Shown here: positions 1 to 36,383 of the stretch, one piece after another
Layout: the number at the start of each line of letters is the position of its first letter
How positions within the stretch are numbered: the stretch's first letter is position 1
Sequence record: PZ445456.1
DNA: 39,315 nucleotides
Origin: a phage
Reading direction: 5' to 3' (one strand)
Made by a program: the position numbers and the translations under genes
The notes under the pieces: generated by a model
What the model saw: only the letters and a program-made list of their open reading frames with translations
Told to the model about the DNA's origin: nothing
The model's database searches: none

Positions 1-1761
1 ATGTCACAATCCCAAGAAGCTAAGAACGCGCTAATCATTGCGCAACTTAAGGGTGACTTCGTGGCCTTCCTGTTCGTCTTATGGAAGGCTCTGAACTTAC
101 CTAAACCAACCAAGTGTCAGATTGATATGGCACGTACACTCGCTAACGGCGACCACAAGAAGTTTATCCTTCAGGCGTTCCGTGGTATCGGGAAGTCCTT
201 TATCACCTGTGCGTTCGTTGTGTGGGTGCTGTGGCGTGACCCTCAACTGAAGATACTCATCGTGTCTGCCTCCAAGGAACGTGCTGATGCTAACTCCATC
301 TTCATCAAGAACATCATCGACCTCCTTCCGTTCCTCTCTGAGTTGAAACCTCGACCGGGACAGCGAGACTCCGTGATTAGCTTCGATGTTGGCTTGGCTA
401 AACCAGACCACTCTCCCTCTGTGAAGTCTGTAGGTATCACTGGTCAGTTGACTGGTAGCCGTGCTGACATCATTATCGCAGATGACGTTGAGGTTCCCGG
501 TAATAGCTCTACGAGTTCTGCCCGTGAGAAGCTCTGGACGTTGGTAACTGAGTTTGCTGCATTACTTAAGCCGCTGCCTACCTCTCGTGTTATCTACCTT
601 GGCACACCTCAAACCGAGATGACGCTCTACAAGGAACTTGAGGATAACAAAGGTTACAGTACAGTAATCTGGCCAGCACAGTATCCTCGTAATGACGCTG
701 AGGCTCTCTACTATGGGGACCGCTTGGCTCCGATGCTTAAGGCTGAGTATGATGAGGGCTATGAGTTACTTCGTGGTCAACCTACTGACCCTGTTCGATT
801 CGACATGGATGACCTCCGTGAACGTGAACTCGAATATGGTAAAGCTGGCTACACTCTTCAGTTCATGCTTAACCCGAACCTTAGTGATGCCGAGAAGTAC
901 CCTCTACGACTCCGTGACGCTATCGTGTGCGCTGTGGACCCTGAACGTGCCCCATTGTCTTACCAGTGGCTTCCGAACCGTCAGAACCGCAATGAGGAAC
1001 TCCCTAACGTTGGTCTGAAGGGTGATGACATCCATGCGTTCCATACGTGCTCTTCTCGTACCGCTGAGTATCAGTCTAAGATTCTGGTCATTGACCCAAG
1101 TGGTCGTGGTAAGGATGAGACCGGGTATGCAGTCCTCTACTCACTGAACGGTTACATCTACCTGATGGAAGTCGGAGGGTTCCGTGGTGGCTACGATGAT
1201 GCTACCCTAGAGAAGCTCGCTAAGAAGGCCAAGCAGTGGAAGGTACAGACAGTCGTCCATGAGTCCAACTTCGGTGATGGTATGTTCGGTAAGATTTTCT
1301 CTCCGATTCTCCTGAAGCACCATAAGTGTGCCTTAGAGGAAATCCGTGCTAAGGGCATGAAGGAGATGCGAATCTGCGATACTATCGAGCCGTTGATGGG
1401 TGCACACAAGCTGGTCATTCGTGATGAGGTTATCCGTGAGGACTACCAGACTGCTCGTGACCTTGATGGGAAACACGATGTCCGCTACAGTGCGTTCTAT
1501 CAGATGACCCGTATGACTCGTGAGAAGGGCGCTGTGGCACACGATGACCGCATTGATGCTATCGCATTGGGTATCGAGTTCCTTCGTGAAGGGATGCTTG
1601 TGGACAGCCGTGTAGGTGAAGAAGAGATGACCCTTGAGTTCCTTGAACACCACATGGAGAAACAGACCATTGGTGGTGATGCTATCCATAGCTACGAGGC
1701 TGGTGGCGTAGACATCTACTACGAGGACGATGGAGACTCTAGCTGCTTCATTGAGTGGTAA
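1..1761 (+). CDS. 19: Terminase large subunit (DNA maturase B), 586 aa
   Basis: Near full-length match to T7 gp19 as recalled ([25 protein letters not shown]..., [38 protein letters not shown]); RBS AAGGAGG lies at the window end just upstream across the circular junction. Confidence 0.95.
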
Positions 1762-1781
1762 TAGATAATAGGAGGTATATA

Positions 1782-2228
1782 ATGAGAGTGGCAATTGATA
1801 GTATCACTGGTTGCCACATCTTCCAAGGGTGTAAGACTAAGGGTGGCTACGGTAGGATTCGTGTTAATGGTGTTCATTGGATGGCACATCGATACGCACT
1901 ATTCGTCCACCTGAAGCGTCCTTTAAGGGAAGGATGTGTGGTAATGCACTCCTGTGATAACCCTTCGTGTGTCAATCCAGCGCACTTATCTGAGGGAACA
2001 CAGAAAGAGAACATGGCTGACTGTAAGACAAAGGGCCGTATGGTTCGTGGAGGTTCTTCGGGTCCACGCAAAAGTCTTACAGAGAGGCTCCAAGAGTCAT
2101 TTGAGAAACGACTAAAGGCTGTGCTTGAGGCTAATGGCTCAGACGCTGAGGTTGCTAAGAGACTTGGTTTAAACATCCAGTGGGTCAAGAAGGCTCGATC
2201 TGGTAAACTAAATATGCACGTAAAGTGA
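1782..2228 (+). CDS. HNH homing-type endonuclease with C-terminal HTH-like region, 148 aa
   Basis: ATG at 1782 preceded by AGGAGG (1770-1775). HNH signature CHIF..C..GYGRIRVNGVHWMAHRYALFVH...HSCDNPSCVNPAHL; C-terminal EVAKRLGLNIQWVKKARSG resembles a helix-turn-helix. Confidence 0.8.
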   Translation: MRVAIDSITGCHIFQGCKTKGGYGRIRVNGVHWMAHRYALFVHLKRPLREGCVVMHSCDNPSCVNPAHLSEGTQKENMADCKTKGRMVRGGSSGPRKSLTERLQESFEKRLKAVLEANGSDAEVAKRLGLNIQWVKKARSGKLNMHVK

Positions 2229-2294
2229 CTTACTATGCACTATGGGCACCCTATTGAGTGAGGTATAAAAACCTAATGAAATCAAGGGTGTCCC

Positions 2295-2317
2295 TAATAC
2301 GACTCACTATTGGGAAG
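2295..2317 (+). promoter_or_regulatory. Phage RNAP promoter, right-end (phiOR-equivalent)
   Basis: TAATACGACTCACTATTGGGAAG; 22/23 match to this genome's own promoter consensus; position after gene 19 region as in T7. Confidence 0.7.
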
Positions 2318-2476
2318 GGCACCCTAAGACAACTTAAAGACACTTAAAGACTGCATATGCAAAGTGCATACTTAGTGACTAACTCTTAGAGAGACCCTTA
2401 CAGTGAGGGATGATGGTAATAGTAATTACATCCCTACTATCAGTGTAACCATCAAGTATAACAAGGAGGACGCTCT

Positions 2477-2632
2477 ATGCGCTTACTATCCGTGCTCAAG
2501 ACACTGGCAACGCATCGAGTGACTTACAAATTTCTCGTTGTACTTGCTGCTTCCATTGGTCTCGCATCTAGTGCTGAACACATCGGTGAACTGGAGACTC
2601 TGCTTTGTTCTCTACTCACTTGTGTTCCTTAG
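2477..2632 (+). CDS. Small hydrophobic protein, 51 aa (gene 19.5 position)
   Basis: ATG with strong RBS AAGGAGGA 8 nt upstream; MRLLSVLKTLATHRVTYKFLVVLAASIGLASSAEHIGELETLLCSLLTCVP; sits about 180 nt downstream of the right-end promoter as gene 19.5 does in T7. Confidence 0.45.
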   Translation: MRLLSVLKTLATHRVTYKFLVVLAASIGLASSAEHIGELETLLCSLLTCVP

Positions 2633-2639
2633 ACTGATC

Positions 2640-3215
2640 ATCGGCGCTTAGTGCGCTCTTAGTGATTATGGTCGATATACATCTTCCCTATAATCACTGT
2701 AAGAAGTCAACTCTAAGAGTAACCCTTATGTACCACTCTATGGTCTACAGGGTCTCTTAGGGTCTCTCACGTAGTCTCACCTTATGATAGAGCCTCTGTG
2801 GTTAACCTTATGAGACTTGATGTACCCCTTTAAGAATCCTACAGAAAAATCTGAGAGGGTATCTCATAGTTCATACAAAGTGTTTCCCCCCCTATGGCCT
2901 CCTTCAGTTACCCCAAAGAGTCGGCCCCTATGGTAACTTTATGTTTACTTAATGTCAATCCTTATGTGTGACATTGGGTGAATCACTTGGTGTTACCACT
3001 AGATGTAGTGCTTAGTGTGACCTTATGACCACTATATGTAGTCCTCTCTGTGTCCCTATCTGTAAGTGACCATTGAGTTACTCCTTATGTCATCACCTTA
3101 TGTCATCTCCTTATGTCATCACCTAGAGTCTCTCCTTATGGCTGGCTATCCTTATGTTAACCTTCAGTCGGTGCCTTCAGTCGATAGACCTTATGTTGTC
3201 ACTTAAAGACCATAC
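2640..3215. repeat. Genome-terminus region with arrays of short direct repeats (11 CCTTATG copies plus CCTATGG and CCTTCAGTCG variants)
   Basis: CCTTATG at 2724, 2780, 2806, 2960, 3021, 3083, 3096, 3109, 3134, 3150, 3189; triple tandem CCTTATGTCATC(A/T) at 3083-3122; CCTTCAGTCG twice at 3161-3183. Non-coding; positionally equivalent to the T7 terminal repeat with flanking short-repeat arrays. True ends and repeat length cannot be read from sequence alone. Confidence 0.6.
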
Positions 3216-3218
3216 AGC

Positions 3219-3241
3219 TAATACAACTCACTATTGAGGAT
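3219..3241 (+). promoter_or_regulatory. Phage RNAP promoter, left-end (phiOL-equivalent)
   Basis: TAATACAACTCACTATTGAGGA; shares the ACAACTC variant I recall for T7 phiOL; lies upstream of the sigma70 promoter cluster. Confidence 0.6.
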
Positions 3242-3317: not shown

Positions 3318-3346
3318 TTGACTCTAAGATTAACCTATGAGACTAT
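3318..3346 (+). promoter_or_regulatory. Host sigma70 early promoter (A1-like)
   Basis: TTGACT (3318-3323), 17-nt spacer, GACTAT (3341-3346); surrounding sequence TTGACTCTAAGATTAACCTATGAGACTATAG parallels T7 A1 as recalled. Confidence 0.5.
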
Positions 3347-3452
3347 AGCAACCGTTGAGAGACACAACGCTACCAACTACCAGACAAGACCTAGAGTTAT
3401 CTGGTAAGGCTGAAGGGTCTCAAGTAGTCATCAACCAGACATACGAAAGTGG

Positions 3453-3481
3453 TTGACTCAACGATAGAAACAACGTAGTAT
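3453..3481 (+). promoter_or_regulatory. Host sigma70 early promoter (A2-like)
   Basis: TTGACT (3453-3458), 17-nt spacer, TAGTAT (3476-3481). Confidence 0.45.
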
Positions 3482-3545
3482 AGCAGTCGTCAACAACTGG
3501 TCGCCCTCTGAAACAACATGAGGTGTCACGGTGGCAAACAATAGG

Positions 3546-3575
3546 TTGACAGGCAGCAACAACAAGATGTAAGAT
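3546..3575 (+). promoter_or_regulatory. Host sigma70 early promoter (A3-like)
   Basis: TTGACA (3546-3551), 18-nt spacer, TAAGAT (3570-3575). Confidence 0.5.
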
Positions 3576-3644
3576 GTACGACATAACGTTCTTGTGAAGT
3601 CCCACACTGAAAGGGACTCGGTGCTAACAAAACTGCACTTAAAG

Positions 3645-3735
3645 CTCTTTAACAATTTGGATAATAAGCACTCTTGAGATGATGACAACAGCGATTAACT
3701 CAAGGTGACTCGAAAGAGAAGCCTTTATGATAATC
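3645..3735 (+). promoter_or_regulatory. Putative RNase III processing site upstream of gene 0.3 (R0.3-like)
   Basis: CTCTTTAACAATTTGGATAATAAGCACTCTTGAGATGATGACAACAGCGATTAACTCAAGG...CCTTTATGATAATCACT closely parallels the T7 R0.3 leader as recalled; boundaries approximate. Confidence 0.4.
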
Positions 3736-3762
3736 ACTGCAACCACATGAGGTACACATCCC

Positions 3763-4218
3763 ATGATTCACACTAAAGAGCAAGCTAACGTTTTCTATGT
3801 ACTGGTAAGCGCATTCCGTTCTAACCTGCACCACTTGGATAACCTTAGCCGTCATCGTCGCTTAGTTAACAGCTTACGCAATGCACCTCTGGAATACGGT
3901 AGCGTTGAGTCCACAGACTTAACTGGCTGTTACCATGAGGCTGGCATGGAGTCACCTGCTGAAGAGCAAACCATCCGAGTACGCTGCACGACCAAGGCGC
4001 AAGCTATAAGTGTCGCACGGTTGGCCTGTAACGACTATGAGCAAGACTGTGTACTGGTCTATAAGTCACAGACTCACAGCGCTGCACTAATCTTTGCTGG
4101 TGGCTTAGATGGCTGGAAGACTGAGCGCATTGGGACGTTCCAGATGGTCGCACCCGAAGTTGAACTGATTGGCAACTACACGGTCGATGAGTTCGGACGT
4201 GGCTGGAAGGTAATCTAA
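3763..4218 (+). CDS. 0.3: S-adenosylmethionine hydrolase/lyase (T3-type gene 0.3 anti-restriction), 151 aa
   Basis: MIHTKEQANVFYVLVSAFRSN...YGSVESTDLTGCY...KAQAISVARLACN..EQDCVLVYKSQTH...IDEFGR matches T3 SAMase as recalled; not Ocr-like (not acidic, no DNA mimic character). Confidence 0.88.
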   Translation: MIHTKEQANVFYVLVSAFRSNLHHLDNLSRHRRLVNSLRNAPLEYGSVESTDLTGCYHEAGMESPAEEQTIRVRCTTKAQAISVARLACNDYEQDCVLVYKSQTHSAALIFAGGLDGWKTERIGTFQMVAPEVELIGNYTVDEFGRGWKVI

Positions 4219-4415
4219 TGGTCGCACTCTTCGTAATCACGATGTACGCTCTGATTGGGGCGTACTTCCTTCGAGACTTCCGCAAGGGTCTGAAGGTACA
4301 CAAGGCTAACTTCTCGCACCTGAAGTATGGCTTTCTACCACGATTCACAGTCCGTGAACGCAACGGGCGCTTTAAGGCTAACAAGGTTGGTATCTTCTAT
4401 GTTGCAACACACTGA
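4218..4415 (+). CDS. Small early membrane protein, 65 aa (gene 0.4-0.6 region)
   Basis: TAATG overlap with the 0.3 stop; N-terminal hydrophobic helix VALFVITMYALIGAYFL; no homology recognised. Confidence 0.4.
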   Translation: MVALFVITMYALIGAYFLRDFRKGLKVHKANFSHLKYGFLPRFTVRERNGRFKANKVGIFYVATH

Positions 4416-4563
4416 TAGTTTAACTAAGAAAGTTCTGTACGCACTGGCATATGGTGCTACCAACAAGACTCTAATGCGGGCATTGCACCTGAAGCGGCTG
4501 CCAGCCAGAAAGGTAGCAAAGGCACGTAAAGAAGCACGTTTAATCATCAATTCTCTTTCTTAA
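4399..4563 (+). CDS. Small basic early protein, about 54 aa
   Basis: In-frame ATG at 4399 inside ORF 4327..4563; overlaps the preceding ORF in another frame; basic C-terminus LKRLPARKVAKARKEARLI. Start uncertain. Confidence 0.3.
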   Translation: MLQHTDSLTKKVLYALAYGATNKTLMRALHLKRLPARKVAKARKEARLIINSLS

Positions 4564-4584
4564 ACTTAAATAGGACACAATCTA

Positions 4585-5508
4585 ATGAACTACACCGACA
4601 TTCAGGCACGTCTGGCAATCATCAAGTCACTCCCGATTAGCGAACTGGACAAGCGCCAGCCTCTTCTGGTTGCACTGGCTGCTGACATCGTGAACGGTGA
4701 GACAAGCGATGGCAACGATACAGATGGGTCGCAGGGTCTTGAGTATCAGGACTATTGGCACACATTGGGTGCACTGATGCGTGATGCTGGATTCAAGATG
4801 TTAGGCAATGGTCACTTCAGTGCGGCCTACTCGCACGAAATGTTACCGGGTCGAGTCATCAAGGTTGGCTTTAAGAAAGAGGATTCAGGCGCTGCGTACA
4901 CTGCGTTCTGTAGGATGCACCAAGGCCGAGCGGGTATCCCTAACGTCTATCACGTAGCACGACATGCAGGTTGCTATACGGTCGTACTGGACCGCTTAAA
5001 AAGCTGTGACCGCTACGCTAACGATGTGCACGCAAAGTATGCAAGTGCTGCGCAGGAGTTCATTGAGTGCACTGGAGGTGATGCTGATTGGTACGCACAA
5101 TATGTTAGCAAGGAGTTCATTGAGACGTGCAAGATGATTCGTGAGTTCTTCCACGGTATTGCATCTTTCGACATGCACAGCGGGAACATTATGTTCGATG
5201 ACAACGATGTCCCGTACATCACTGACCCGGTTAGCTTCTCACATGACCGTGAACGTGAGGACGGTTTCCCTCTGGACCCTGAAGCACTGCTGGCTGAGGT
5301 CGAGGCTGTAGCGAAAGAGCGCATGATTGAACGTTGCCGCAACCGCAAGGCCAAGTGTGACCCTAACGGAACCTTTCAGGTTAACCGCAAGGCCGCAATG
5401 AAACGCCGTAAGCGCAACCGCAAGTTACGCGCCAAACGTGATGCTGAGGCTGCAAAGCACTTTGTACAGCATAGACATGGACAAAGCAGGAACTACGGGA
5501 CGCTATGA
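4585..5508 (+). CDS. 0.7: Gene 0.7 protein kinase (N-terminal kinase portion), 307 aa
   Basis: [15 protein letters not shown]...[22 protein letters not shown]...GIPNVY...[10 protein letters not shown]...[13 protein letters not shown]...[11 protein letters not shown] matches T7 gp0.7 as recalled. Confidence 0.9.
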
Positions 5509-5690
5509 GGGCGCAAGATTGGATGGGTGCGCACAACTGGCACAACATGTGGTTGCACAACAACATTGCAGACGTAATCAAGATTGACCAAGTGAACGGC
5601 CTTAAGTGGCAACTAGGGGACCGCCTCGCAATACAAGCGGGTCTCCCTTTGAACATCGACAAGGCACTTGACGCTCAACTGATGGGCTGA
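5505..5690 (+). CDS. Gene 0.7 C-terminal (host shut-off) domain as a separate ORF, 61 aa
   Basis: Different frame, ATGA overlap with the kinase ORF stop; C-terminus [21 protein letters not shown] matches the T7 gp0.7 C-terminus (..LTLNIDKQLDAMLMG). Confidence 0.6.
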
Positions 5691-5763: not shown

Positions 5764-8415
5764 ATGACTAACGTAATCAACGCACCAAAGAACGACTTCT
5801 CTGACATCGCTAACGCAATCCAGCCGTACAACATTCTGGCTGACCACTACGGTGCACAGCTTGCAGCTACACAGCTTGAGTTAGAACACGAAGCGCACAC
5901 CGAAGGCGAGAAGCGTTTCCTTAAGGCAATGGAACGTCAAATCAAAGCGGGTGAGTTCGGCGATAACGCAGTAGCTAAACCTCTCCTGTCATCCCTCGCA
6001 CCGAAGTTTATCGAGGCGTGGAACACTTGGTTCGCTGAAGTGGAAGCGAAGCGTGGCAAGCGTCCAGTGGCCTACAATCTGGTACAGAAGGTTACACCTG
6101 AAGCTGCTGCATTCATCACACTGAAGGTCACGCTGGCTTGCTTGACCAAAGAGGAATACACGAACCTTCAATCGGTCGCCACTAAGATTGGTCGCAGTAT
6201 TGAAGACGAGCTACGTTTTGGTCGCATCCGTGACGAAGAAGCGAAGCACTTTAAGAACCATGTACAAGAAGCACTCAACAAGCGCGTTGGTATCGTCTAC
6301 AAGAAAGCATTCATGCAAGCGGTTGAAGGCAAGATGTTAGACGCTGGTCAACTACAGACCAAGTGGACCACATGGACACCTGAAGAAGCAATTCACGTTG
6401 GTGTACGCATGTTGGAACTACTCATTGGTTCTACTGGTCTCGTTGAGTTACACCGCCCGTTCGCTGGGAACATCGAGAAGGATGGCGAGTACATCCAGTT
6501 AACAGAACAGTATGTAGACCTGTTATCCAAACGTGCTGGCGCACTGGCTGCAATCGCTCCGATGTATCAGCCTTGCGTGGTCCCGCCTAAGCCTTGGACT
6601 TCTCCGGTCGGCGGTGGCTATTGGGCTGCTGGTCGCAAGCCTCTCTCTCTGGTTCGCACTGGTAGCAAGAAGGGACTGGAACGTTACAACGACGTGTACA
6701 TGCCTGAAGTTTACAAGGCGGTGAACATCGCACAGAATACTCCTTGGAAGATTAACAAGAAGGTTCTGGCAGTGGTCAACGAGATTGTGAACTGGAAGCA
6801 TTGCCCGGTTGAAGATGTACCCGCTCTGGAACGTGGAGAACTTCCGGTCAAACCTGATGACATCGACACCAACGAGGCATCACTCAAAGCATGGAAGAAA
6901 GCGGCCTCCGCAATCTACCGTAAAGAGAAGGCTCGCGTGTCTCGTCGCATGAGCATGGAGTTCATGTTGGGTCAAGCCAATAAGTTCGCACAGTTTAAAG
7001 CTATCTGGTTCCCGATGAATATGGACTGGCGCGGTCGTGTGTACGCGGTCCCGATGTTCAACCCGCAAGGCAACGACATGACCAAAGGCTTGCTGACGCT
7101 CGCTAAAGGTAAACCAATCGGTGTAGATGGGTACTACTGGCTGAAGATTCACGGTGCTAACACTGCTGGCGTGGACAAGGTGGACTTTGCAGAACGCATC
7201 AAGTTCATTGATGACAACCATGAGAACATCCTGAGCGTAGCGGCTGACCCAATTGCTAACACTTGGTGGGCCGAGCAAGACTCTCCGTTCTGCTTCCTCG
7301 CGTTCTGCTTCGAGTATGCAGGTGTGCAACACCACGGGATGAACTACAACTGCTCTCTTCCGCTGGCGTTCGATGGTAGCTGCTCCGGTATTCAGCACTT
7401 CTCCGCGATGCTCCGTGATGAGGTTGGCGGTCGTGCGGTTAACCTGCTGCCGAGCAAGGAAGTACAGGACATCTACCGCATCGTTGCGGAACGTGTGAAC
7501 GAAATCCTGAACCAAGATGTTATCAACGGGACCGACAACGAAGTAGAGACCGTGACCAACAAGGACACAGGGGAAATCACTGAGAAGCTCAAGCTGGGTA
7601 CTAAAGAACTAGCTGGTCAGTGGCTGGCCTATGGTGTGACTCGCAAGGTCACTAAGCGTTCAGTCATGACATTGGCTTACGGTTCCAAAGAGTACGGCTT
7701 CCGTGACCAAGTTCTTGAGGACACCATTCAGCCAGCTATCGACGATGGCAAGGGCTTGATGTTCACTCAACCGAACCAAGCGGCTGGCTATATGGCTAAA
7801 CTGATTTGGAACGCCGTAACGGTGACTGTGGTCGCTGCGGTTGAGGCAATGAACTGGCTGAAGTCTGCTGCTAAACTGCTGGCTGCTGAGGTCAAGGACA
7901 AGAAGACCAAAGAGGTTCTGCGCAAACGCTGTGCGGTACATTGGGTAACTCCTGATGGCTTCCCTGTGTGGCAGGAATACCGTAAGGCAGTACAGACCCG
8001 CTTGAACCTGATGTTCTTAGGTCAGATTCGTTTGCAGCCTACCGTGAACACCAACAAGGATAGCGGCATTGATGCACGTAAGCAGGAGTCAGGTATCGCA
8101 CCTAACTTTGTTCACTCAATGGATGGTAGCCACCTGCGCATGACTGTGGTCCGCTCCAATGAGGTCTACGGTGTGGAATCGTTCGCACTGATTCACGACT
8201 CCTTTGGCACTATCCCTGCTGATGCTGGCAACCTGTTTAAAGCAGTGCGTGAAACTATGGTCAACACTTACGAAGAGAACGATGTACTTGCAGACTTCTA
8301 TGAGCAATTTGCTGACCAGTTGCACGAATCACAGCTTGACAAGATGCCTGAGATGCCAGCTAAAGGTTCTCTGGACCTGCAAGAAATCCTTAAGTCAGAC
8401 TTTGCGTTTGCCTAA
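5764..8415 (+). CDS. 1: Single-subunit DNA-dependent RNA polymerase, 883 aa
   Basis: Collinear match to T7 RNAP over the full length; motif C IHDSFGT and specificity-loop residues R746/N748/R756/Q758 present (QTRLNLMFLGQIRLQPT). Confidence 0.98.
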   Translation: MTNVINAPKNDFSDIANAIQPYNILADHYGAQLAATQLELEHEAHTEGEKRFLKAMERQIKAGEFGDNAVAKPLLSSLAPKFIEAWNTWFAEVEAKRGKRPVAYNLVQKVTPEAAAFITLKVTLACLTKEEYTNLQSVATKIGRSIEDELRFGRIRDEEAKHFKNHVQEALNKRVGIVYKKAFMQAVEGKMLDAGQLQTKWTTWTPEEAIHVGVRMLELLIGSTGLVELHRPFAGNIEKDGEYIQLTEQYVDLLSKRAGALAAIAPMYQPCVVPPKPWTSPVGGGYWAAGRKPLSLVRTGSKKGLERYNDVYMPEVYKAVNIAQNTPWKINKKVLAVVNEIVNWKHCPVEDVPALERGELPVKPDDIDTNEASLKAWKKAASAIYRKEKARVSRRMSMEFMLGQANKFAQFKAIWFPMNMDWRGRVYAVPMFNPQGNDMTKGLLTLAKGKPIGVDGYYWLKIHGANTAGVDKVDFAERIKFIDDNHENILSVAADPIANTWWAEQDSPFCFLAFCFEYAGVQHHGMNYNCSLPLAFDGSCSGIQHFSAMLRDEVGGRAVNLLPSKEVQDIYRIVAERVNEILNQDVINGTDNEVETVTNKDTGEITEKLKLGTKELAGQWLAYGVTRKVTKRSVMTLAYGSKEYGFRDQVLEDTIQPAIDDGKGLMFTQPNQAAGYMAKLIWNAVTVTVVAAVEAMNWLKSAAKLLAAEVKDKKTKEVLRKRCAVHWVTPDGFPVWQEYRKAVQTRLNLMFLGQIRLQPTVNTNKDSGIDARKQESGIAPNFVHSMDGSHLRMTVVRSNEVYGVESFALIHDSFGTIPADAGNLFKAVRETMVNTYEENDVLADFYEQFADQLHESQLDKMPEMPAKGSLDLQEILKSDFAFA

Positions 8416-8422
8416 CGGAATC

Positions 8423-8445
8423 TAATACGACTCACTATTGGGAGA
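8423..8445 (+). promoter_or_regulatory. Phage RNAP promoter (phi1.1A-equivalent)
   Basis: TAATACGACTCACTATTGGGAGA, exact consensus; followed by a G9 run and an AT-rich CTTTAAG-repeat leader. Confidence 0.8.
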
Positions 8446-8512: not shown

Positions 8513-9070
8513 ATGTTTACTTTCATCACTTCAGTAGGCGCTCTCGTAGCAACCATTCTTGCAGCAACATACTACAACCGTTCAAAGGTATTTCTCACTA
8601 AGCTAATCAAAGAAGAGAAGAACTCTCACGCACTCAAAGAGAGACTTGAAGATGGGTGGCGAGAGAAGCAGGAACTGGCTGGTCGAATCCGTACCTTAGA
8701 GTTCGAACAACAATATGACATGTCGAACCAACGAGAACTCATTGAGCGTCTACGCGCTGAGGCAGTGGAGTACCGCAAGGAACTTAAAGAGGCAAAGAGT
8801 ATCATCCGTGAGTACACACACAGTGACATCACGTCTATCAAGTTTACTGCTCACATCCCGGATGCTGGATGGAAGCGCACTGAGTTCAAGCTAGGTATAG
8901 GGTCTTGCGGCAAAGAGGTTACGTGTTTGCACTGGAAAGAACAGTCGGACCGCTACCTGCTGACACAGACGTGCACTGATGGTGAGCGCAAAGAGTTCAC
9001 CTATTATAAGAAAGACGTAGCTGGTTGCATTGAGATTGCACGTAAGGTTGCAGACAATACGACTCACTAA
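8513..9070 (+). CDS. Membrane-anchored coiled-coil protein with Cys-containing C-terminal domain, 185 aa, function unknown
   Basis: RBS GAGGAAACATAATC-ATG; N-terminal TM helix FTFITSVGALVATILAATYY, predicted coiled coil (aa ~30-100, KE/RE-rich), C-terminal domain with 4 Cys; no T7 homologue recognised at this position. Confidence 0.7.
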   Translation: MFTFITSVGALVATILAATYYNRSKVFLTKLIKEEKNSHALKERLEDGWREKQELAGRIRTLEFEQQYDMSNQRELIERLRAEAVEYRKELKEAKSIIREYTHSDITSIKFTAHIPDAGWKRTEFKLGIGSCGKEVTCLHWKEQSDRYLLTQTCTDGERKEFTYYKKDVAGCIEIARKVADNTTH

Positions 9071-9077
9071 TGGGAAA
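9055..9077 (+). promoter_or_regulatory. Phage RNAP promoter (phi1.1B-equivalent), embedded in the 3' end of the preceding ORF
   Basis: CAATACGACTCACTAATGGGAAA; the promoter codons encode the C-terminal NTTH-stop of ORF 8513..9070. Confidence 0.6.
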
Positions 9078-9309: not shown

Positions 9310-9581
9310 TGGGTCGCTTATATAGTGGTAACTTAATAGCATACAAAGACGCTATCGAACGCCTCAAAGAAGACCACGATGTGAGTGTGGTCGTTGAGAC
9401 TTTCCGCTATGAGAACTATGCGAGGATGCGCTGGGTATCCGGTGAGACTCTTCGAGTGGTCTTACGGAATGGCTTAGTGTTAACCTCTAAGTGTTTCGAA
9501 CAGGACGATGAAGACGTTCGCTGCAATGCACAGACTGAATGGCTTCGTAAGGTACACAGTGACCTGAAGCACTGGAAGTAA
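9309..9581 (+). CDS. 1.2: Gene 1.2 protein (host dGTPase inhibitor family), 90 aa
   Basis: MGRLYSGNLIAYKDA...DEDV..N..TEWL...DLKHWK matches T7 gp1.2 (MGRLYSGNLAAFKAA...QLKDWK). Confidence 0.85.
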   Translation: MGRLYSGNLIAYKDAIERLKEDHDVSVVVETFRYENYARMRWVSGETLRVVLRNGLVLTSKCFEQDDEDVRCNAQTEWLRKVHSDLKHWK

Positions 9582-9601
9582 TACGACTCACTATTGCGAG
9601 A
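9579..9601 (+). promoter_or_regulatory. Phage RNAP promoter (phi1.3-equivalent)
   Basis: TAATACGACTCACTATTGCGAGA; overlaps the gene 1.2 stop codon. Confidence 0.7.
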
Positions 9602-10737: not shown

Positions 10738-10771
10738 GGTCAGTCCTTAGCGGGGCTGGCCTTTTGCGTTT
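10738..10771 (+). terminator. Rho-independent terminator after the ligase gene (TE-like early terminator)
   Basis: GGUCAGUCC-UUAGCG-GGGCUGGCC (9-bp stem with 2 G-U pairs) followed by UUUUGCGUUU. Confidence 0.55.
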
Positions 10772-10794
10772 CTATACGACTCACTATGGAGGAA
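10772..10794 (+). promoter_or_regulatory. Variant phage promoter (phi1.5-like, degenerate)
   Basis: CTATACGACTCACTATGGAGGA; matches consensus -15..-2 but deviates at -17, -16 and -1; activity uncertain. Confidence 0.35.
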
Positions 10795-10801
10795 CACCCT
10801 C

Positions 10802-10882
10802 ATGTTATTTCTAATTGTCGCTGTCATTGTTGCCACATTTGCTCTCGTTGTCATTGACGACAATTGCTGGCCTGATTGCTAA
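10802..10882 (+). CDS. Micro-ORF, 26-aa hydrophobic peptide
   Basis: MLFLIVAVIVATFALVVIDDNCWPDC; stop overlaps the next promoter-like element; position of the T7 1.4/1.5 mini-genes. Could be non-coding. Confidence 0.2.
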   Translation: MLFLIVAVIVATFALVVIDDNCWPDC

Positions 10883-10902
10883 TACGACTCACATATGGAG
10901 GA
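10880..10902 (+). promoter_or_regulatory. Variant phage promoter (phi1.6-like)
   Basis: TAATACGACTCACATATGGAGGA; -17..-5 perfect, -4..-2 scrambled (ATA vs TAT). Confidence 0.35.
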
Positions 10903-11707: not shown

Positions 11708-11895
11708 GCAACTTAAACAAAGGGTCACTTGTAAACGGTGACAAGAAGTTCTTCGCAACGGTCGAAGGCCAAGGCCAATCGTTCGAAGTACCTGTGTTCG
11801 CTGCGTCTCTTGAAGAGGCCAACGAGTTAGCTGAATGGCAGTATGTTCCGGCTGGCTTCGCAGTGACACGCATCCGTCCAGACCGAAAGGTTTAA
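11704..11895 (+). CDS. 2: Gene 2 protein, inhibitor of host RNA polymerase, 63 aa
   Basis: [57 protein letters not shown] matches T7 gp2 (MSNVNTGSL...[18 protein letters not shown]). Confidence 0.9.
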
Positions 11896-11915
11896 TAGGA
11901 CTCACTATTGGGAGA
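11893..11915 (+). promoter_or_regulatory. Phage RNAP promoter (phi2.5-equivalent)
   Basis: TAATAGGACTCACTATTGGGAGA; single mismatch at -12. Confidence 0.7.
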
Positions 11916-13580: not shown

Positions 13581-13673
13581 ATGATGATTATTCACGAGAT
13601 GGGCCTGTACGATTTGATTTATCGCCTCGCGTTCATGCTGGCAATGGTCTACATTCTGACCCGCAAGGATTAA
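13581..13673 (+). CDS. Micro-ORF, 30-aa hydrophobic peptide
   Basis: MMIIHEMGLYDLIYRLAFMLAMVYILTRKD; stop overlaps a promoter-like element. Coding status uncertain. Confidence 0.25.
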   Translation: MMIIHEMGLYDLIYRLAFMLAMVYILTRKD

Positions 13674-13693
13674 TAGAACTCACTATGGGAGGA
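13671..13693 (+). promoter_or_regulatory. Variant phage promoter (phi3.8-like)
   Basis: TAATAGAACTCACTATGGGAGGA; deviates at -12, -11 and -1; followed by a GGGAGG..CTCCC leader hairpin. Confidence 0.4.
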
Positions 13694-15617: not shown

Positions 15618-15640
15618 CAATACAACTCACTAATGGGACA
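15618..15640 (+). promoter_or_regulatory. Phage RNAP promoter (phi4.3-like variant)
   Basis: CAATACAACTCACTAATGGGACA; lies in the overlap/gap before gene 4.3. Confidence 0.45.
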
Positions 15641-16449: not shown

Positions 16450-16472
16450 CTATTCAACTCACTAATGGGAGA
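16450..16472 (+). promoter_or_regulatory. Phage RNAP promoter (phi4.7-like variant)
   Basis: CTATTCAACTCACTAATGGGAGA; core -10..+6 conserved, upstream part divergent. Confidence 0.4.
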
Positions 16473-20955: not shown

Positions 20956-20978
20956 TAATACGACTCACTATTGAGAGG
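20956..20978 (+). promoter_or_regulatory. Phage RNAP promoter (phi6.5-equivalent)
   Basis: TAATACGACTCACTATTGAGAGG; perfect -17..-1. Confidence 0.75.
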
Positions 20979-21930: not shown

Positions 21931-23538
21931 ATGGCAAGCTCACAGAAACGTGAAGGCTTCGCGGAGAATGGTGCCAAGGCGGTGTATGACGCATTGAAGA
22001 ACGACCGGAACTCCTATGAGACCCGTGCGGAAAACTGTGCGAAGTACACCATCCCTTCGTTGTTCCCCAAAGACTCCGACAACGCCTCTACTGACTACAC
22101 CACTCCGTGGCAAGCAGTTGGCGCTCGTGGCTTGAACAACTTGGCCTCTAAGCTCATGCTCGCTCTGTTCCCTATGCAGACGTGGATGAAGCTGACAATC
22201 TCTGAGTTCGAAGCGAAACAATTGGTTGCACAACCAGCCGAACTAGCGAAGGTCGAAGAAGGTCTCTCAATGGTCGAGCGAATCTTGATGAACTACATCG
22301 AGTCCAACTCGTACCGTGTGACACTCTTTGAGACCCTCAAGCAGTTGGTCGTTGCAGGTAACGCTCTGCTCTACATTCCTGAACCTGAAGGTGCTTACAA
22401 TCCCATGAAGCTATACCGCCTGTCTTCTTATGTTGTCCAACGAGACGCATTCGGCACGGTGCTACAGATTGTAACCTTAGATAAGACTGCCTATGCAGCA
22501 CTTCCAGAAGACGTGCGAAACGCTATGGACTCCGGTCAGGAACATAAAGGCGACGAAATGATTGATGTGTACACTCACATTTATCTTGACGAAGAAACAG
22601 GAGAATACCTCAAGTACGAAGAGATTGATGGTGTCGAAGTCGAAGGTACAGATGCTTCTTATCCGGTGGACGCTTGTCCTTATATCCCGGTTCGCATGGT
22701 ACGCATTGATGGAGAATCATATGGTCGCTCTTACTGTGAGGAATACTTAGGTGACTTACGGTCCCTTGAGAACCTCCAAGAAGCTATCGTTAAGATGTCA
22801 ATGATTAGTGCAAAAGTTATCGGCTTGGTTAACCCTGCTGGTATCACACAGGTTCGTCGTTTGACCAAAGCACAGACAGGTGACTTCGTGTCCGGTCGTC
22901 CAGAAGACATCTCGTTCCTTCAGCTTGAAAAGGCCGCAGACTTCTCTGTAGCGAAAGCTGTGAGTGAACAGATTGAGGGCCGACTGTCCTATGCCTTTAT
23001 GCTTAACTCCGCTGTTCAACGTACTGGTGAGCGTGTGACTGCCGAAGAGATTCGATATGTCGCATCTGAACTCGAAGATACCCTTGGTGGTGTCTATTCG
23101 ATTCTCTCACAGGAACTTCAGTTGCCAATGGTTCGTGTCCTGCTGAAGCAACTTCAAGCGACCAATCAGATTCCTGAGTTACCGAAAGAGGCCGTTGAGC
23201 CTACTATCAGTACCGGGATGGAAGCATTGGGTCGTGGTCAAGACCTCGATAAGCTGGAACGCTGTATTGCTGCGTGGTCTGCGCTGGCTCCTATGCAGGG
23301 AGACCCGGACATCAACATTGCGACCATTAAGTTGCGCATTGCGAACGCTATCGGCATCGACACTTCTGGTATCCTCAAGACACCTGAAGAGAAACAACAG
23401 GAGATGGCTGAGGCTGCTCAAGGTACTGCACTGGAGAACGCTGCTGCATCTGCTGGTGCTGGTGCTGGTGCACTTGCTACTGCAAGCCCTGAGAACATGC
23501 AAGCTGCTGCTGAACAGGCTGGAATGGTTCCAAATTAA
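21931..23538 (+). CDS. 8: Head-to-tail connector (portal) protein, 535 aa
   Basis: Full-length collinear match to T7 gp8 (YTIPSLFPKDSDNASTDYTTPWQAVGARGLNNLASKLMLALFPMQTWM, LGDLRSLENLQEAIVKMSMIS, TGERVTAEEIRYVASELEDTLGGVYSILSQELQLP). Confidence 0.97.
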   Translation: MASSQKREGFAENGAKAVYDALKNDRNSYETRAENCAKYTIPSLFPKDSDNASTDYTTPWQAVGARGLNNLASKLMLALFPMQTWMKLTISEFEAKQLVAQPAELAKVEEGLSMVERILMNYIESNSYRVTLFETLKQLVVAGNALLYIPEPEGAYNPMKLYRLSSYVVQRDAFGTVLQIVTLDKTAYAALPEDVRNAMDSGQEHKGDEMIDVYTHIYLDEETGEYLKYEEIDGVEVEGTDASYPVDACPYIPVRMVRIDGESYGRSYCEEYLGDLRSLENLQEAIVKMSMISAKVIGLVNPAGITQVRRLTKAQTGDFVSGRPEDISFLQLEKAADFSVAKAVSEQIEGRLSYAFMLNSAVQRTGERVTAEEIRYVASELEDTLGGVYSILSQELQLPMVRVLLKQLQATNQIPELPKEAVEPTISTGMEALGRGQDLDKLERCIAAWSALAPMQGDPDINIATIKLRIANAIGIDTSGILKTPEEKQQEMAEAAQGTALENAAASAGAGAGALATASPENMQAAAEQAGMVPN

Positions 23539-23558
23539 TACGACTCACTAATGGGAGA
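23536..23558 (+). promoter_or_regulatory. Phage RNAP promoter (phi9-equivalent)
   Basis: TAATACGACTCACTAATGGGAGA; overlaps the gene 8 stop codon. Confidence 0.75.
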
Positions 23559-24528: not shown

Positions 24529-24551
24529 TAATACGACTCACTATTGGGAGA
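24529..24551 (+). promoter_or_regulatory. Phage RNAP promoter (phi10-equivalent, major capsid promoter)
   Basis: TAATACGACTCACTATTGGGAGA, exact consensus; predicted start at G24546. Confidence 0.85.
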
Positions 24552-25870: not shown

Positions 25871-25880
25871 TAACTATATG

Positions 25881-25922
25881 AAACCCCTTGGGTGCCTTCG
25901 CGGGTGCTTGAGGGGTTTTTTT
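25881..25922 (+). terminator. Tphi-like late terminator
   Basis: AAACCCCTTGGGTGCCTTCGCGGGTGCTTGAGGGGTTTTTTT; G/C-rich hairpin with G-U pairs plus a T-run, closely resembling T7 Tphi as recalled (AACCCCTTGGGGCCTCTAAACGGGTCTTGAGGGGTTTTTTG). Confidence 0.75.
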
Positions 25923-25945
25923 CTTAATGACTCACTAATGGGAGG
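25923..25945 (+). promoter_or_regulatory. Variant promoter-like element downstream of Tphi (phi11-like)
   Basis: CTTAATGACTCACTAATGGGAGG; -11..+5 conserved but the upstream half looks like the consensus with one base deleted; activity uncertain. Confidence 0.3.
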
Positions 25946-28973: not shown

Positions 28974-28996
28974 CAATACGACTCACTATTGGGAAG
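28974..28996 (+). promoter_or_regulatory. Phage RNAP promoter (phi13-equivalent)
   Basis: CAATACGACTCACTATTGGGAAG. Confidence 0.7.
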
Positions 28997-36313: not shown

Positions 36314-36314
36314 T

Positions 36315-36337
36315 CAATACGACTCACTATTGGGAAG
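36315..36337 (+). promoter_or_regulatory. Phage RNAP promoter (phi17-equivalent)
   Basis: CAATACGACTCACTATTGGGAAG followed by leader hairpin GGGAAGG..CTTCCC. Confidence 0.7.
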
Positions 36338-36383
36338 GCTCACACAGCTTCCCTTCTATTATACCCAACTAAGGAGGTACATT

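What the first reader, a model, noticed from the sequence alone, without database searches (positions are those of the whole stretch)
3763..4218. T3-type SAM-degrading anti-restriction gene in a genome with T7-type transcription signals
The first early gene encodes a SAMase/SAM lyase-like protein rather than an Ocr DNA mimic, while promoters and RNAP specificity residues are T7-type. This points to a mosaic early region and implies defence evasion by SAM depletion (SAM-dependent type I/III restriction, and possibly other SAM-dependent defences).
Basis: partly seen in the sequence, partly recalled or inferred. Interest (0 to 1): 0.4.

Follow-up and report, generated by a model that had tools for sequence, protein, structure and literature searches.

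The report
Ordinary SAM lyase gene of Berlinvirus
The first early gene of this phage really does encode an enzyme that destroys S-adenosylmethionine to blunt host restriction. It is the normal, already annotated and published arrangement for this phage's genus, not a T3/T7 hybrid.

Summary
Window 3763-4218 (+) is an intact 151-aa ORF. It matches Pfam PF23780 (S-AdoMet lyase) at 134.9 bits and the solved T3 SAMase (7OCK/8BB1) at 66% identity over its full length. All known SAM-binding residues and all strictly conserved MetK-contact residues are kept. There is no Ocr homologue. The 17 phage promoters and RNAP residue N748 are T7-type.

The 'mosaic' inference does not hold. The window is Escherichia phage ErnstBeyeler (Bas68, genus Berlinvirus). 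Its RNAP is equally distant from T7 (75.7%) and T3 (75.3%). A SAM lyase gene combined with T7-like promoters recurs in the other Berlinviruses examined, although the type species Berlin lacks the gene.

The gp0.3 identity to T3 (66%) sits at the genome-wide median (62.5%), and synonymous sites are saturated. The allele belongs to a clade seen only in Berlinviruses, sister to the T3 clade. The real T3 imports are in relatives: Carena gp0.3 is 98.7% identical to T3.

The exact protein is in GenBank as 'SAM hydrolase / restriction inhibitor'. The BASEL paper already explains type I R-M resistance this way, and it reports that type III R-M still restricts these phages strongly.

Verdict: already known, low interest.

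The parts
3219..3241 (+). phiOL-type phage RNAP promoter (TAATACAACTCACTATTGAGGAT)
   Evidence: 5 mismatches to the local consensus. It aligns with the annotated phiOL of BA14.
3318..3354 (+). host sigma-70 early promoter 1 (A1-like, -35 TTGACT)
   Evidence: Aligns with the BA14 feature 'host RNAP promoter' at 460-496. Assigned by homology only; it was not picked up by the simple consensus scan.
3453..3489 (+). host sigma-70 early promoter 2 (TTGACT, 17 nt, TAGTAT)
   Evidence: Found by the consensus scan. Aligns with the BA14 host promoter at 595-631.
3546..3581 (+). host sigma-70 early promoter 3 (TTGACA, 18 nt, TAAGAT)
   Evidence: Consensus scan, 10 of 12 matches. Aligns with the BA14 host promoter at 685-722. 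A fourth promoter present in BA14 and Carena lies in a roughly 150-nt insert that is absent here.
3689..3739 (+). conserved leader stem-loop, homologous to the hairpin just upstream of T7 gene 0.3 (candidate R0.3 RNase III processing site)
   Evidence: MFE -16.4 kcal/mol, z -3.8, 0 of 200 shuffles fold as well. Alignment with BA14, PhiV-1, Carena, T3 and T7 gives 13 pairs, 2 of them with compensatory changes. RNase III cleavage is inferred from the position in T7 (my knowledge of T7) and was not tested.
3749..3753 (+). Shine-Dalgarno GAGGT, 9 nt before the ATG
   Evidence: Read directly from the sequence. Conserved in T3, T7, Carena and PhiV-1.
3763..4218 (+). gene 0.3: SAM lyase (SAMase), 151 aa
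   Evidence: PF23780 at 134.9 bits. T3 SAMase PDB 7OCK/8BB1 at E 8e-61. Residues G55, Y57, E68, Q94, D95, T4, N9, Q103, T104 and H105 are kept. dN/dS is 0.08-0.22. The exact sequence is GenBank QXV78401.1.
4218..4415 (+). next early ORF (0.6A-like, 65 aa); its start overlaps the 0.3 stop (TAATG)
   Evidence: ORF list. phrog_2385, E 6e-29. 97% identical to PhiV-1 and 63% to T3.
5764..8415 (+). gene 1: single-subunit RNA polymerase with T7-type specificity residues
   Evidence: 883 aa. N748, R756, Q758, R96 and K98 as in T7. 75.7% identical to T7, 75.3% to T3 and 98-99.7% to Berlinviruses.
2295..2317 (+). phage promoter (phiOR position, after gene 19)
   Evidence: 2 mismatches to the local consensus
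8423..8445 (+). phage promoter phi1.05 (exact consensus)
   Evidence: Same position as the BA14 phi1.05 promoter.
9055..9077 (+). phage promoter
   Evidence: 3 mismatches
9579..9601 (+). phage promoter
   Evidence: mismatch
10772..10794 (+). weak phage promoter
   Evidence: 6 mismatches
10880..10902 (+). phage promoter
   Evidence: 5 mismatches
11893..11915 (+). phage promoter
   Evidence: mismatch
13671..13693 (+). phage promoter
   Evidence: 5 mismatches
15618..15640 (+). phage promoter
   Evidence: 4 mismatches
16450..16472 (+). phage promoter
   Evidence: 5 mismatches
20956..20978 (+). phage promoter
   Evidence: mismatches
23536..23558 (+). phage promoter (before gene 9)
   Evidence: mismatch
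24529..24551 (+). phage promoter (before gene 10, exact consensus)
25923..25945 (+). weak phage promoter
   Evidence: 7 mismatches
28974..28996 (+). phage promoter (before gene 13)
   Evidence: 3 mismatches
36315..36337 (+). phage promoter (phi17 position)
   Evidence: 3 mismatches
10738..10771 (+). intrinsic terminator after the ligase gene (TE position, end of the early operon that starts with 0.3)
   Evidence: Terminator scan: 10-bp stem followed by a T run. Same position as T7 TE.
25880..25929 (+). Tphi-like terminator after gene 10
   Evidence: Terminator scan: 18-bp stem followed by a T run.

Best explanation
Window 3763-4218 is gene 0.3 of Escherichia phage ErnstBeyeler (Bas68, genus Berlinvirus). 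It encodes a functional S-adenosylmethionine lyase of the T3 gp0.3 family.

How it most likely works:
1. The gene is the first cistron of the early operon. Host RNA polymerase transcribes it from three sigma-70 promoters at the left genome end as the DNA enters the cell.
2. A conserved leader hairpin, the counterpart of T7 R0.3, and a GAGGT ribosome-binding site precede it.
3. The protein cleaves SAM to methylthioadenosine and homoserine lactone.
4. Through its N-terminal tail and the beta4-beta5 loop it most likely also binds the host SAM synthase MetK. SAM falls, and SAM-dependent type I restriction (and probably BREX) cannot act on the unmodified incoming genome.

The gene is a long-standing resident of this lineage rather than a recent graft from a T3-like phage onto a T7-like backbone. 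The T7-like promoters and RNAP specificity residues are likewise a lineage trait of Berlinvirus.

Shown here: homology, conserved residues, genomic position, purifying selection, and lineage placement.
Inferred here: enzyme activity, MetK binding, RNase III processing, and BREX evasion.
For: Family and residues:
- PF23780 at 134.9 bits against a cut-off of 28; phrog_2226, E 1e-43.
- 66% identity over residues 1-150 to the biochemically and structurally characterised T3 enzyme.
- The residues that bind SAM in Svi3-3 and T3 are all present: G55, Y57, E68, Q94, D95. Their roles are given in PMC7877911 and bioRxiv 10.1101/2023.02.27.530186.
- The MetK-contact residues reported as strictly conserved are all present: T4, N9, Q103, T104, H105. 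M1, I2, K5, E6 and A8 are also kept. Only F3H and T106S differ.

Selection:
- dN/dS is 0.08 against PhiV-1 and 0.11 against T3.

Expression context:
- Three host promoters, a leader hairpin with covariation, a Shine-Dalgarno site, and a TE-like terminator at 10738.

Lineage:
- RNAP is 98-99.7% identical to Berlinviruses.
- Median identity to T3 is 62.5% over 36 orthologue pairs, and gp0.3 stands at 66%.
- The window allele groups with PhiV-1 and Erwinia phage pEa_SNUABM_57, both Berlinviruses, as sister to the T3 clade.

Identity and phenotype:
- The exact protein is QXV78401.1, 'SAM hydrolase / restriction inhibitor [Escherichia phage ErnstBeyeler]', on a contig of 39315 bases, the same length as the window.
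- The taxonomy places it in Berlinvirus ernstbeyeler.
- In the BASEL study, type I R-M systems were largely ineffective against all Studiervirinae isolates. The authors attribute this to Ocr or to a SAM hydrolase at the 0.3 locus.
Against: - No enzymatic or genetic test exists for this allele. It differs from the T3 enzyme at 34% of positions, concentrated in residues 23-26, 58-66 and 120-140.
- Svi3-3 and ORF1 SAM lyases did not give anti-BREX activity, so BREX evasion cannot be assumed from SAM cleavage alone.
- The BASEL attribution of type I resistance to gp0.3 is itself an inference; no 0.3 deletion of Bas68 was tested.
- Few type I recognition sites in these genomes could also contribute.
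- 'Resident allele' is inferred from clade membership among only 13 sequences in a neighbour-joining tree. Import from an unsampled lineage is not excluded.
Confidence: 0.92

Rival explanations
1. The early region is a recent mosaic: a T3-type SAMase cassette was recombined into a phage whose backbone and transcription system are T7-type.
For: - The 0.3 slot is demonstrably exchangeable. Carena, a Berlinvirus, has a 745-nt block 90.6% identical to T3, with gp0.3 at 98.7% identity.
- The type species, Yersinia phage Berlin, has no SAM lyase.
- Klebsiella phages carry either Ocr or a SAM lyase.
- Within Berlinvirus the window allele and the BA14 allele share the first 66 nt (95.5%) and then drop to 66% nucleotide identity. 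This shows that a breakpoint lies inside the gene.
Against: - The backbone is not T7-type. All core genes are about equally distant from T7 and T3, and RNAP is 75.7% against 75.3%.
- Window gp0.3 is no closer to T3 than the rest of the genome: 66% against a median of 62.5%.
- Synonymous sites against T3 are saturated, dS about 2.6.
- The allele's clade contains only Berlinviruses.
- Twelve phage records carry the allele at 90% identity or more. At least nine of them are in the top-60 RNAP list, with RNAP at least 97.4% identical to the window's.
Confidence: 0.04
2. The window-type allele was imported into Berlinvirus from a third, unsampled Studiervirinae lineage. The T3-clade allele seen in BA14 and Kvp1 would then be the original resident.
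For: - The two allele classes coexist in phages that are otherwise 93-99% identical.
- The flanks (leader, first 22 codons, gene 0.6A) are shared between the window and BA14, while the interior is about 34% diverged. One of the two must therefore be an import.
- More Berlinvirus records carry T3-clade alleles than window-type ones.
Against: - BA14 and Kvp1 alleles are 89-90% identical to T3, and Carena's is 98.7%. These values lie far above the genome median of about 63%, which marks the T3-clade alleles as the transferred ones.
- No donor lineage for the window type is seen in 50,697 phage records. The best hit below the 90% band is another Berlinvirus at 75%.
Confidence: 0.1
3. The protein has lost lyase activity and acts only as a MetK-binding inhibitor of SAM synthesis, or it has some other role.
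For: - A catalytically dead T3 SAMase (E68Q/Q94A) keeps partial anti-BREX activity through MetK binding.
- The window allele is 34% diverged from T3.
Against: - All five SAM-binding positions are unchanged.
- The Pfam match covers nearly the whole profile, 1-132 of 133 positions.
- dN/dS is about 0.1.
Confidence: 0.04

Closest known systems
Bacteriophage T3 gp0.3 SAMase / SAM lyase (PDB 7OCK, 8BB1; Pfam PF23780)
   Same: - Same family, with a full-length alignment at 66% identity and the same length (151 against 152 aa).
- Same SAM-binding residues and the same strictly conserved MetK-contact residues.
- Same position as the first early gene, behind host promoters and a conserved leader hairpin.
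   Different: - It belongs to a sister clade found only in Berlinviruses.
- 34% of residues differ, mostly at 23-26, 58-66 and 120-140. F3H and T106S lie at the edge of the MetK interface.
- The host genome uses T7-like rather than T3-like promoters.
gp0.3 of Escherichia phage PhiV-1, Salmonella phage SPLA4, Yersinia phage PYPS50, Pectobacterium phage PcCB251 and other Berlinviruses
   Same: - 92.7-97.4% identical proteins at the same locus.
- Most are annotated as S-adenosyl-L-methionine hydrolase.
- They fall in the same 90% cluster of 57 members.
   Different: Only a few substitutions; PhiV-1 differs at 4 aa.
T7 gp0.3 Ocr (DNA mimic)
   Same: - Same genomic slot and the same conserved leader hairpin and ribosome-binding site.
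- Same biological purpose, overcoming type I restriction.
   Different: - No sequence similarity.
- Ocr is a DNA mimic that binds the restriction enzyme and is not an enzyme acting on SAM (my knowledge; PMC7877911).
Svi3-3 / ORF1 environmental phage SAM lyases
   Same: Same reaction and the same handful of conserved SAM-binding residues: G56, Y58, E69, Q104 and E105 in Svi3-3, corresponding to G55, Y57, E68, Q94 and D95 here.
   Different: - Sequence similarity to the T3 family is barely detectable.
- They lack the MetK-binding residues and gave no anti-BREX effect.

Membership tests
Phage SAM lyase (T3 gp0.3 SAMase family, Pfam PF23780) | Sequence match to the family profile above the curated threshold | tested here: met
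   134.9 bits against a gathering cut-off of 28, profile positions 1-132 of 133. phrog_2226, E 1.4e-43.
Phage SAM lyase (T3 gp0.3 SAMase family, Pfam PF23780) | Full-length homology to the biochemically characterised T3 enzyme | tested here: met
   phmmer E 8.2e-61, query 1-150 against chain 1-151, 66% identity.
Phage SAM lyase (T3 gp0.3 SAMase family, Pfam PF23780) | Conserved SAM-binding residues (T3 numbering G55, Y57, E68, Q94, D95) | tested here: met
   All five are identical in the window protein. Their roles come from PMC7877911 and bioRxiv 10.1101/2023.02.27.530186.
Phage SAM lyase (T3 gp0.3 SAMase family, Pfam PF23780) | MetK-binding N-terminal tail and beta4-beta5 loop (T4, N9, Q103, T104, H105 strictly conserved in the T3-like subfamily) | tested here: met
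   All five are present. F3H and T106S are the only changes among the listed contact residues. Binding itself was not tested.
Phage SAM lyase (T3 gp0.3 SAMase family, Pfam PF23780) | Position as the first gene of the early, host-transcribed operon | tested here: met
   Three host promoters at 3318-3581, a leader hairpin, a Shine-Dalgarno site, then the ATG at 3763. No earlier ORF.
Phage SAM lyase (T3 gp0.3 SAMase family, Pfam PF23780) | Catalysis: SAM converted to 5'-methylthioadenosine plus homoserine lactone | not testable with these tools
   Needs purified protein with HPLC or NMR, or delta-ilvA rescue as in PMC7877911.
Phage SAM lyase (T3 gp0.3 SAMase family, Pfam PF23780) | Nine-stranded beta-barrel fold of T3 SAMase | not tested
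   No structure prediction was run. At 66% identity over the full length to the solved chain, the fold is inferred.
Ocr-type DNA mimic (T7 gp0.3) | Sequence similarity to T7 Ocr | tested here: not met
   tblastn of T7 Ocr against the window at E<=10 gives no hit.
Genus Berlinvirus (Studiervirinae) | High nucleotide and protein identity to genus members across the genome | tested here: met
   - 89-94% nucleotide identity over 81-92% of the first 25 kb to nasanit, Carena, P483, PhiV-1, BA14 and others.
- RNAP 97.4-99.7% identical to 60 listed records, including the type species Berlin.
- NCBI taxonomy: Berlinvirus ernstbeyeler.
T7-type promoter/RNAP specificity | Promoter bases C-12, G-11, A-10 and RNAP N748 (T3 has A, C, C and D) | tested here: met
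   - 17 promoters fit TAATACGACTCACTATTGGGAGA. None fit the T3 consensus.
- N748, R756 and Q758 are present.
- One difference from T7: T at -1.
- Cross-recognition by T7 RNAP was not tested.

The most novel reading that the evidence does not exclude
Two deeply diverged SAM lyase allele classes, about 66% identical with saturated synonymous sites, circulate within a genus whose genomes are otherwise 93-99% identical. They are swapped between a conserved leader plus first-22-codon 'handle' and the stop codon. Intragenic recombinants exist, such as vB_SEqdws-315.

This could reflect balancing or diversifying selection. Hosts might carry factors that sense or neutralise one allele class, or MetK variants that bind only one. 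The window-type allele would then be functionally distinct from T3 SAMase rather than a neutral variant.
Probability: 0.12. Interest if true: 0.35.

Novelty: already known. Interest (0 to 1): 0.08.

Why it matters
It matters little as a discovery. The gene, its family, its role and even this exact protein are already in GenBank and in the BASEL paper.

The useful outcome is corrective, in four ways:
- 'SAM lyase plus T7-like promoters' is the recurring Berlinvirus arrangement, not evidence of a T3/T7 hybrid.
- The window's allele is the non-T3 clade. The genuine T3 imports sit in relatives such as Carena.
- Published plating data argue against protection from type III restriction.
- Many database records, and PHROG 2226, mislabel this family as 'SAM-dependent methyltransferase', which can mislead automated annotation.

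Tried and rejected
- T3-consensus promoter search, up to 3 mismatches: 0 hits.
- T7 Ocr tblastn against the window: no hit.
- Rfam gathering scan of the whole window: no family matched. The leader hairpin was therefore characterised by folding and by alignment with T7, T3 and Berlinvirus leaders instead.
- Literature search for 'BA14' plus 'SAMase': no papers. One paper search and one paper look-up failed on the 3-character term limit.
- A sigma-70-like match at 3705-3734 was rejected as a promoter. It lies inside the conserved leader hairpin and is not annotated in BA14.
- The SAM-AMP lyase paper was checked for a link to type III CRISPR signalling. In the passages returned, 'phage T3' occurs only once and T3-family enzymes are not described as acting on SAM-AMP, so no claim is made.
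- I did not run the 5.8-billion-protein homology search, the representative-library HMMER search or structure prediction. At 66% identity to a solved structure, with an exact GenBank match, they could not have changed the verdict.

Full report
**The observation**

Window 3763-4218 on the + strand is an uninterrupted ORF of 151 codons, ATG to TAA.
- It matches Pfam PF23780 (S-Adenosylmethionine lyase family) with E 2.2e-39 and 134.9 bits against a cut-off of 28. The match covers positions 1-132 of the 133-position profile.
- Against all PDB chains its only significant match is the phage T3 'SAM hydrolase / S-adenosylmethionine lyase' (7OCK, 8BB1). E is 8.2e-61, residues 1-150 align to 1-151, and identity is 66%.
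- T7 Ocr finds nothing in the window.

A GAGGT ribosome-binding site lies 9 nt upstream of the ATG. No other credible + strand ORF lies between the host promoters and this ATG.

**Functional residues**

The Svi3-3 structure paper identifies G56, Y58, E69, Q104 and E105 as the few conserved SAM-binding residues of phage SAM lyases. It equates E69 with T3 E68 (PMC7877911).

The T3/BREX study shows three things (bioRxiv 10.1101/2023.02.27.530186):
- E68Q/Q94A is catalytically dead.
- T3 SAMase binds the host SAM synthase MetK through its N-terminal tail (M1, I2, F3, T4, K5, A8, N9) and its beta4-beta5 loop (Q103, T104, T106).
- T4, N9, Q103, T104 and H105 are strictly conserved among relatives that are at least 30% identical.

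In the window protein G55, Y57, E67, E68, Q94, D95, T4, N9, Q103, T104 and H105 are all unchanged. Only F3H and T106S differ among the listed contacts.

dN/dS is 0.08 against the closest allele (PhiV-1) and 0.11 against T3. The gene is therefore under purifying selection. An active lyase that also binds MetK is the straightforward reading, but neither activity was or could be tested here.

**Expression context**

Alignment with the curated BA14 record places the physical left end of the genome near window 2862.
- The phiOL promoter lies at 3219.
- Three host sigma-70 promoters lie at 3318-3354, 3453-3489 and 3546-3581.
- A fourth host promoter present in BA14 and Carena lies in a roughly 150-nt segment that is missing here.
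- Between the promoters and the ATG, a stem-loop at 3689-3739 folds far better than shuffles (z -3.8).
- This stem-loop aligns with the hairpin just upstream of gene 0.3 in T7, T3, BA14, PhiV-1 and Carena. Two of its 13 pairs show compensatory changes. By position it is the counterpart of the T7 R0.3 RNase III site; that assignment is an inference from my knowledge of T7.
- The 0.3 stop overlaps the start of the next ORF (TAATG, 4218).
- A TE-like intrinsic terminator follows the ligase gene at 10738-10771.

**Transcription signals**

Seventeen phage promoters, all on the + strand, fit TAATACGACTCACTATTGGGAGA. This is the T7 consensus apart from T in place of A at -1. The T3 consensus has no match even with three mismatches.

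The RNA polymerase (5764-8415) has N748, R746, R756 and Q758 in the specificity loop and R96 and K98 in the AT-rich recognition loop, as in T7. T3 has D, K and R at 748, 96 and 98. The 'T7-type' description of the signals is correct.

**Why this is not a T3/T7 mosaic**

- The RNAP as a whole is 75.7% identical to T7 and 75.3% to T3, whereas T7 and T3 are 82% identical to each other.
- Gene by gene, the conserved proteins are about equally distant from both model phages.
- The window is 89-94% identical in DNA to Berlinvirus genomes: nasanit, Carena, P483, PhiV-1, BA14, PYPS50 and others.
- 83 phage records have an RNAP at least 95% identical to the window's, including the type species Yersinia phage Berlin.
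- The exact gp0.3 sequence is GenBank QXV78401.1, 'SAM hydrolase / restriction inhibitor [Escherichia phage ErnstBeyeler]', from a 39315-base contig, the length of the window.
- NCBI taxonomy files that phage as Berlinvirus ernstbeyeler, and it is Bas68 of the BASEL collection.
- BA14, PhiV-1 and Carena share the T7-like promoter sequence and the RNAP specificity loop.

**Is the gene itself a recent T3 import? No.**

- Across 36 orthologue pairs the median identity of window proteins to T3 is 62.5%. gp0.3 at 66% is unremarkable.
- Synonymous divergence from T3 is saturated, dS about 2.6.
- In a neighbour-joining tree of 13 SAM lyases, the window, PhiV-1 and Erwinia phage pEa_SNUABM_57 (all Berlinviruses) form a clade. 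It is sister to a 'T3 clade' that mixes Teetrevirus members (T3, AP5) with Berlinvirus members (Carena, BA14, Kvp1, vB_SEqdws-315).
- Carena's gp0.3 is 98.7% identical to T3 and is the top outlier of its genome, whose median is 63.6%. It sits within a 745-nt block that is 90.6% identical to T3 DNA.
- BA14 and Kvp1 are 89-90% identical to T3.

Horizontal exchange of 0.3 between T3-like phages and Berlinviruses is therefore real, but the window carries the allele class that does not show it.

Within the genus the exchange boundaries are sharp:
- The first 66 nt of the gene are 95.5% identical between the window and BA14.
- The rest of the gene is 66% identical.
- Identity returns at the stop codon.

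Yersinia phage Berlin has no SAM lyase at all. Across phage records Ocr homologues (572 records) and SAM lyase homologues (502 records) are both common, and Klebsiella phages carry one or the other. The 0.3 position is a generally exchangeable anti-restriction slot behind a conserved leader.

**Which defences**

The BASEL paper tested its Studiervirinae isolates. [quoted passage not shown] It attributes type I resistance to Ocr in Teseptimavirus or to a T3-like SAM hydrolase in the other genera (PMC8594841, section 15).
It also shows that the point is already published for this phage.
- It argues against useful protection from type III restriction.
- Anti-BREX activity is shown for T3 SAMase and depends partly on MetK binding. 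The window protein keeps those residues, so BREX evasion is plausible but untested.

**Verdict**

This is a real, intact and almost certainly functional SAM lyase gene, in the arrangement shared with other Berlinviruses, and already annotated and discussed in the literature. It is not a novel mosaic. Interest is low.

The only mildly open question is why two deeply diverged allele classes persist and recombine within one genus.

Noticed in passing
window 4585-5690: Gene 0.7 (protein kinase / host shut-off) is split into a 307-aa ORF (4585-5508) and a 61-aa ORF in another frame (5505-5690). The A-run near 5486 is one base shorter than in BA14 (AAAG against AAAAG). The 61-aa piece matches positions 307-366 of the 366-position kinase profile phrog_2828. 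This is either a genuine truncation that removes the C-terminal domain or a homopolymer sequencing error.
   Followed up: partly
window 1755-2228: An HNH endonuclease ORF (PF13392, E 1.4e-6; 39% identical to T7 gp7.7) sits directly after the terminase large-subunit gene. It is absent from PhiV-1 and Carena, so it is probably a mobile homing-endonuclease insertion.
   Followed up: partly
window 3581-3582: A roughly 150-nt segment present in BA14 and Carena, which contains their fourth annotated host promoter, is absent here and in PhiV-1. The two phages examined that carry the window-type 0.3 allele therefore have three early host promoters instead of four.
   Followed up: partly
L007 (Carena) 3983-4725; L005 (T3) 667-1405: Berlinvirus Carena carries a 745-nt block 90.6% identical to T3 that covers the 0.3 leader and gene. 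Its gp0.3 is 98.7% identical to T3, against a genome median of about 64%. This is a clear recent Teetrevirus-Berlinvirus exchange.
   Followed up: yes
L010 (Enterobacter phage vB_SEqdws-315 gp0.3): This allele is T3-clade overall (86% identical to T3). However, residues about 33-46 (HLVNSLRNAPLEYG) are identical to the window-type allele, which suggests intragenic recombination between the two allele classes.
   Followed up: no
L008 (Yersinia phage Berlin) 1-2480: The type species of the genus has no SAM lyase gene. Only a 76-aa ORF precedes the kinase gene. The 0.3 slot therefore has at least three states within Berlinvirus.
   Followed up: partly
window 3763-4218 (database annotation): PHROG 2226, and many GenBank/RefSeq records derived from it, label this family 'SAM-dependent methyltransferase'. 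The family degrades SAM (it is a lyase), so the label is a propagated misannotation.
   Followed up: partly
window, all 17 phage promoters (e.g. 8423-8445, 24529-24551): The promoter consensus differs from T7 at position -1: T in all 17 promoters, where T7 has A. Five promoters also have A instead of T at -2. Whether T7 RNAP uses these promoters efficiently is not known from this work.
   Followed up: no
window 36273-38258: The tail fibre gene is conserved with relatives only in its N-terminal half (57% identity over 51% of its length to PhiV-1). The receptor-binding C-terminal half is different, as expected for host-range exchange.
   Followed up: no
window 4218-4563: Two overlapping small early ORFs in different frames follow 0.3: 4218-4415 (phrog_2385) and 4327-4563 (phrog_10380). 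They resemble the 0.6A/0.6B arrangement of T7 and T3, where a frameshift product is proposed. Carena lacks both.
   Followed up: no
window 1-3057: The record is circularly permuted. It begins at the ATG of the terminase large-subunit gene. The physical left end of the genome (BA14 position 1) maps to about 2862, with the terminal repeat at about 2862-3057 present once.
   Followed up: partly
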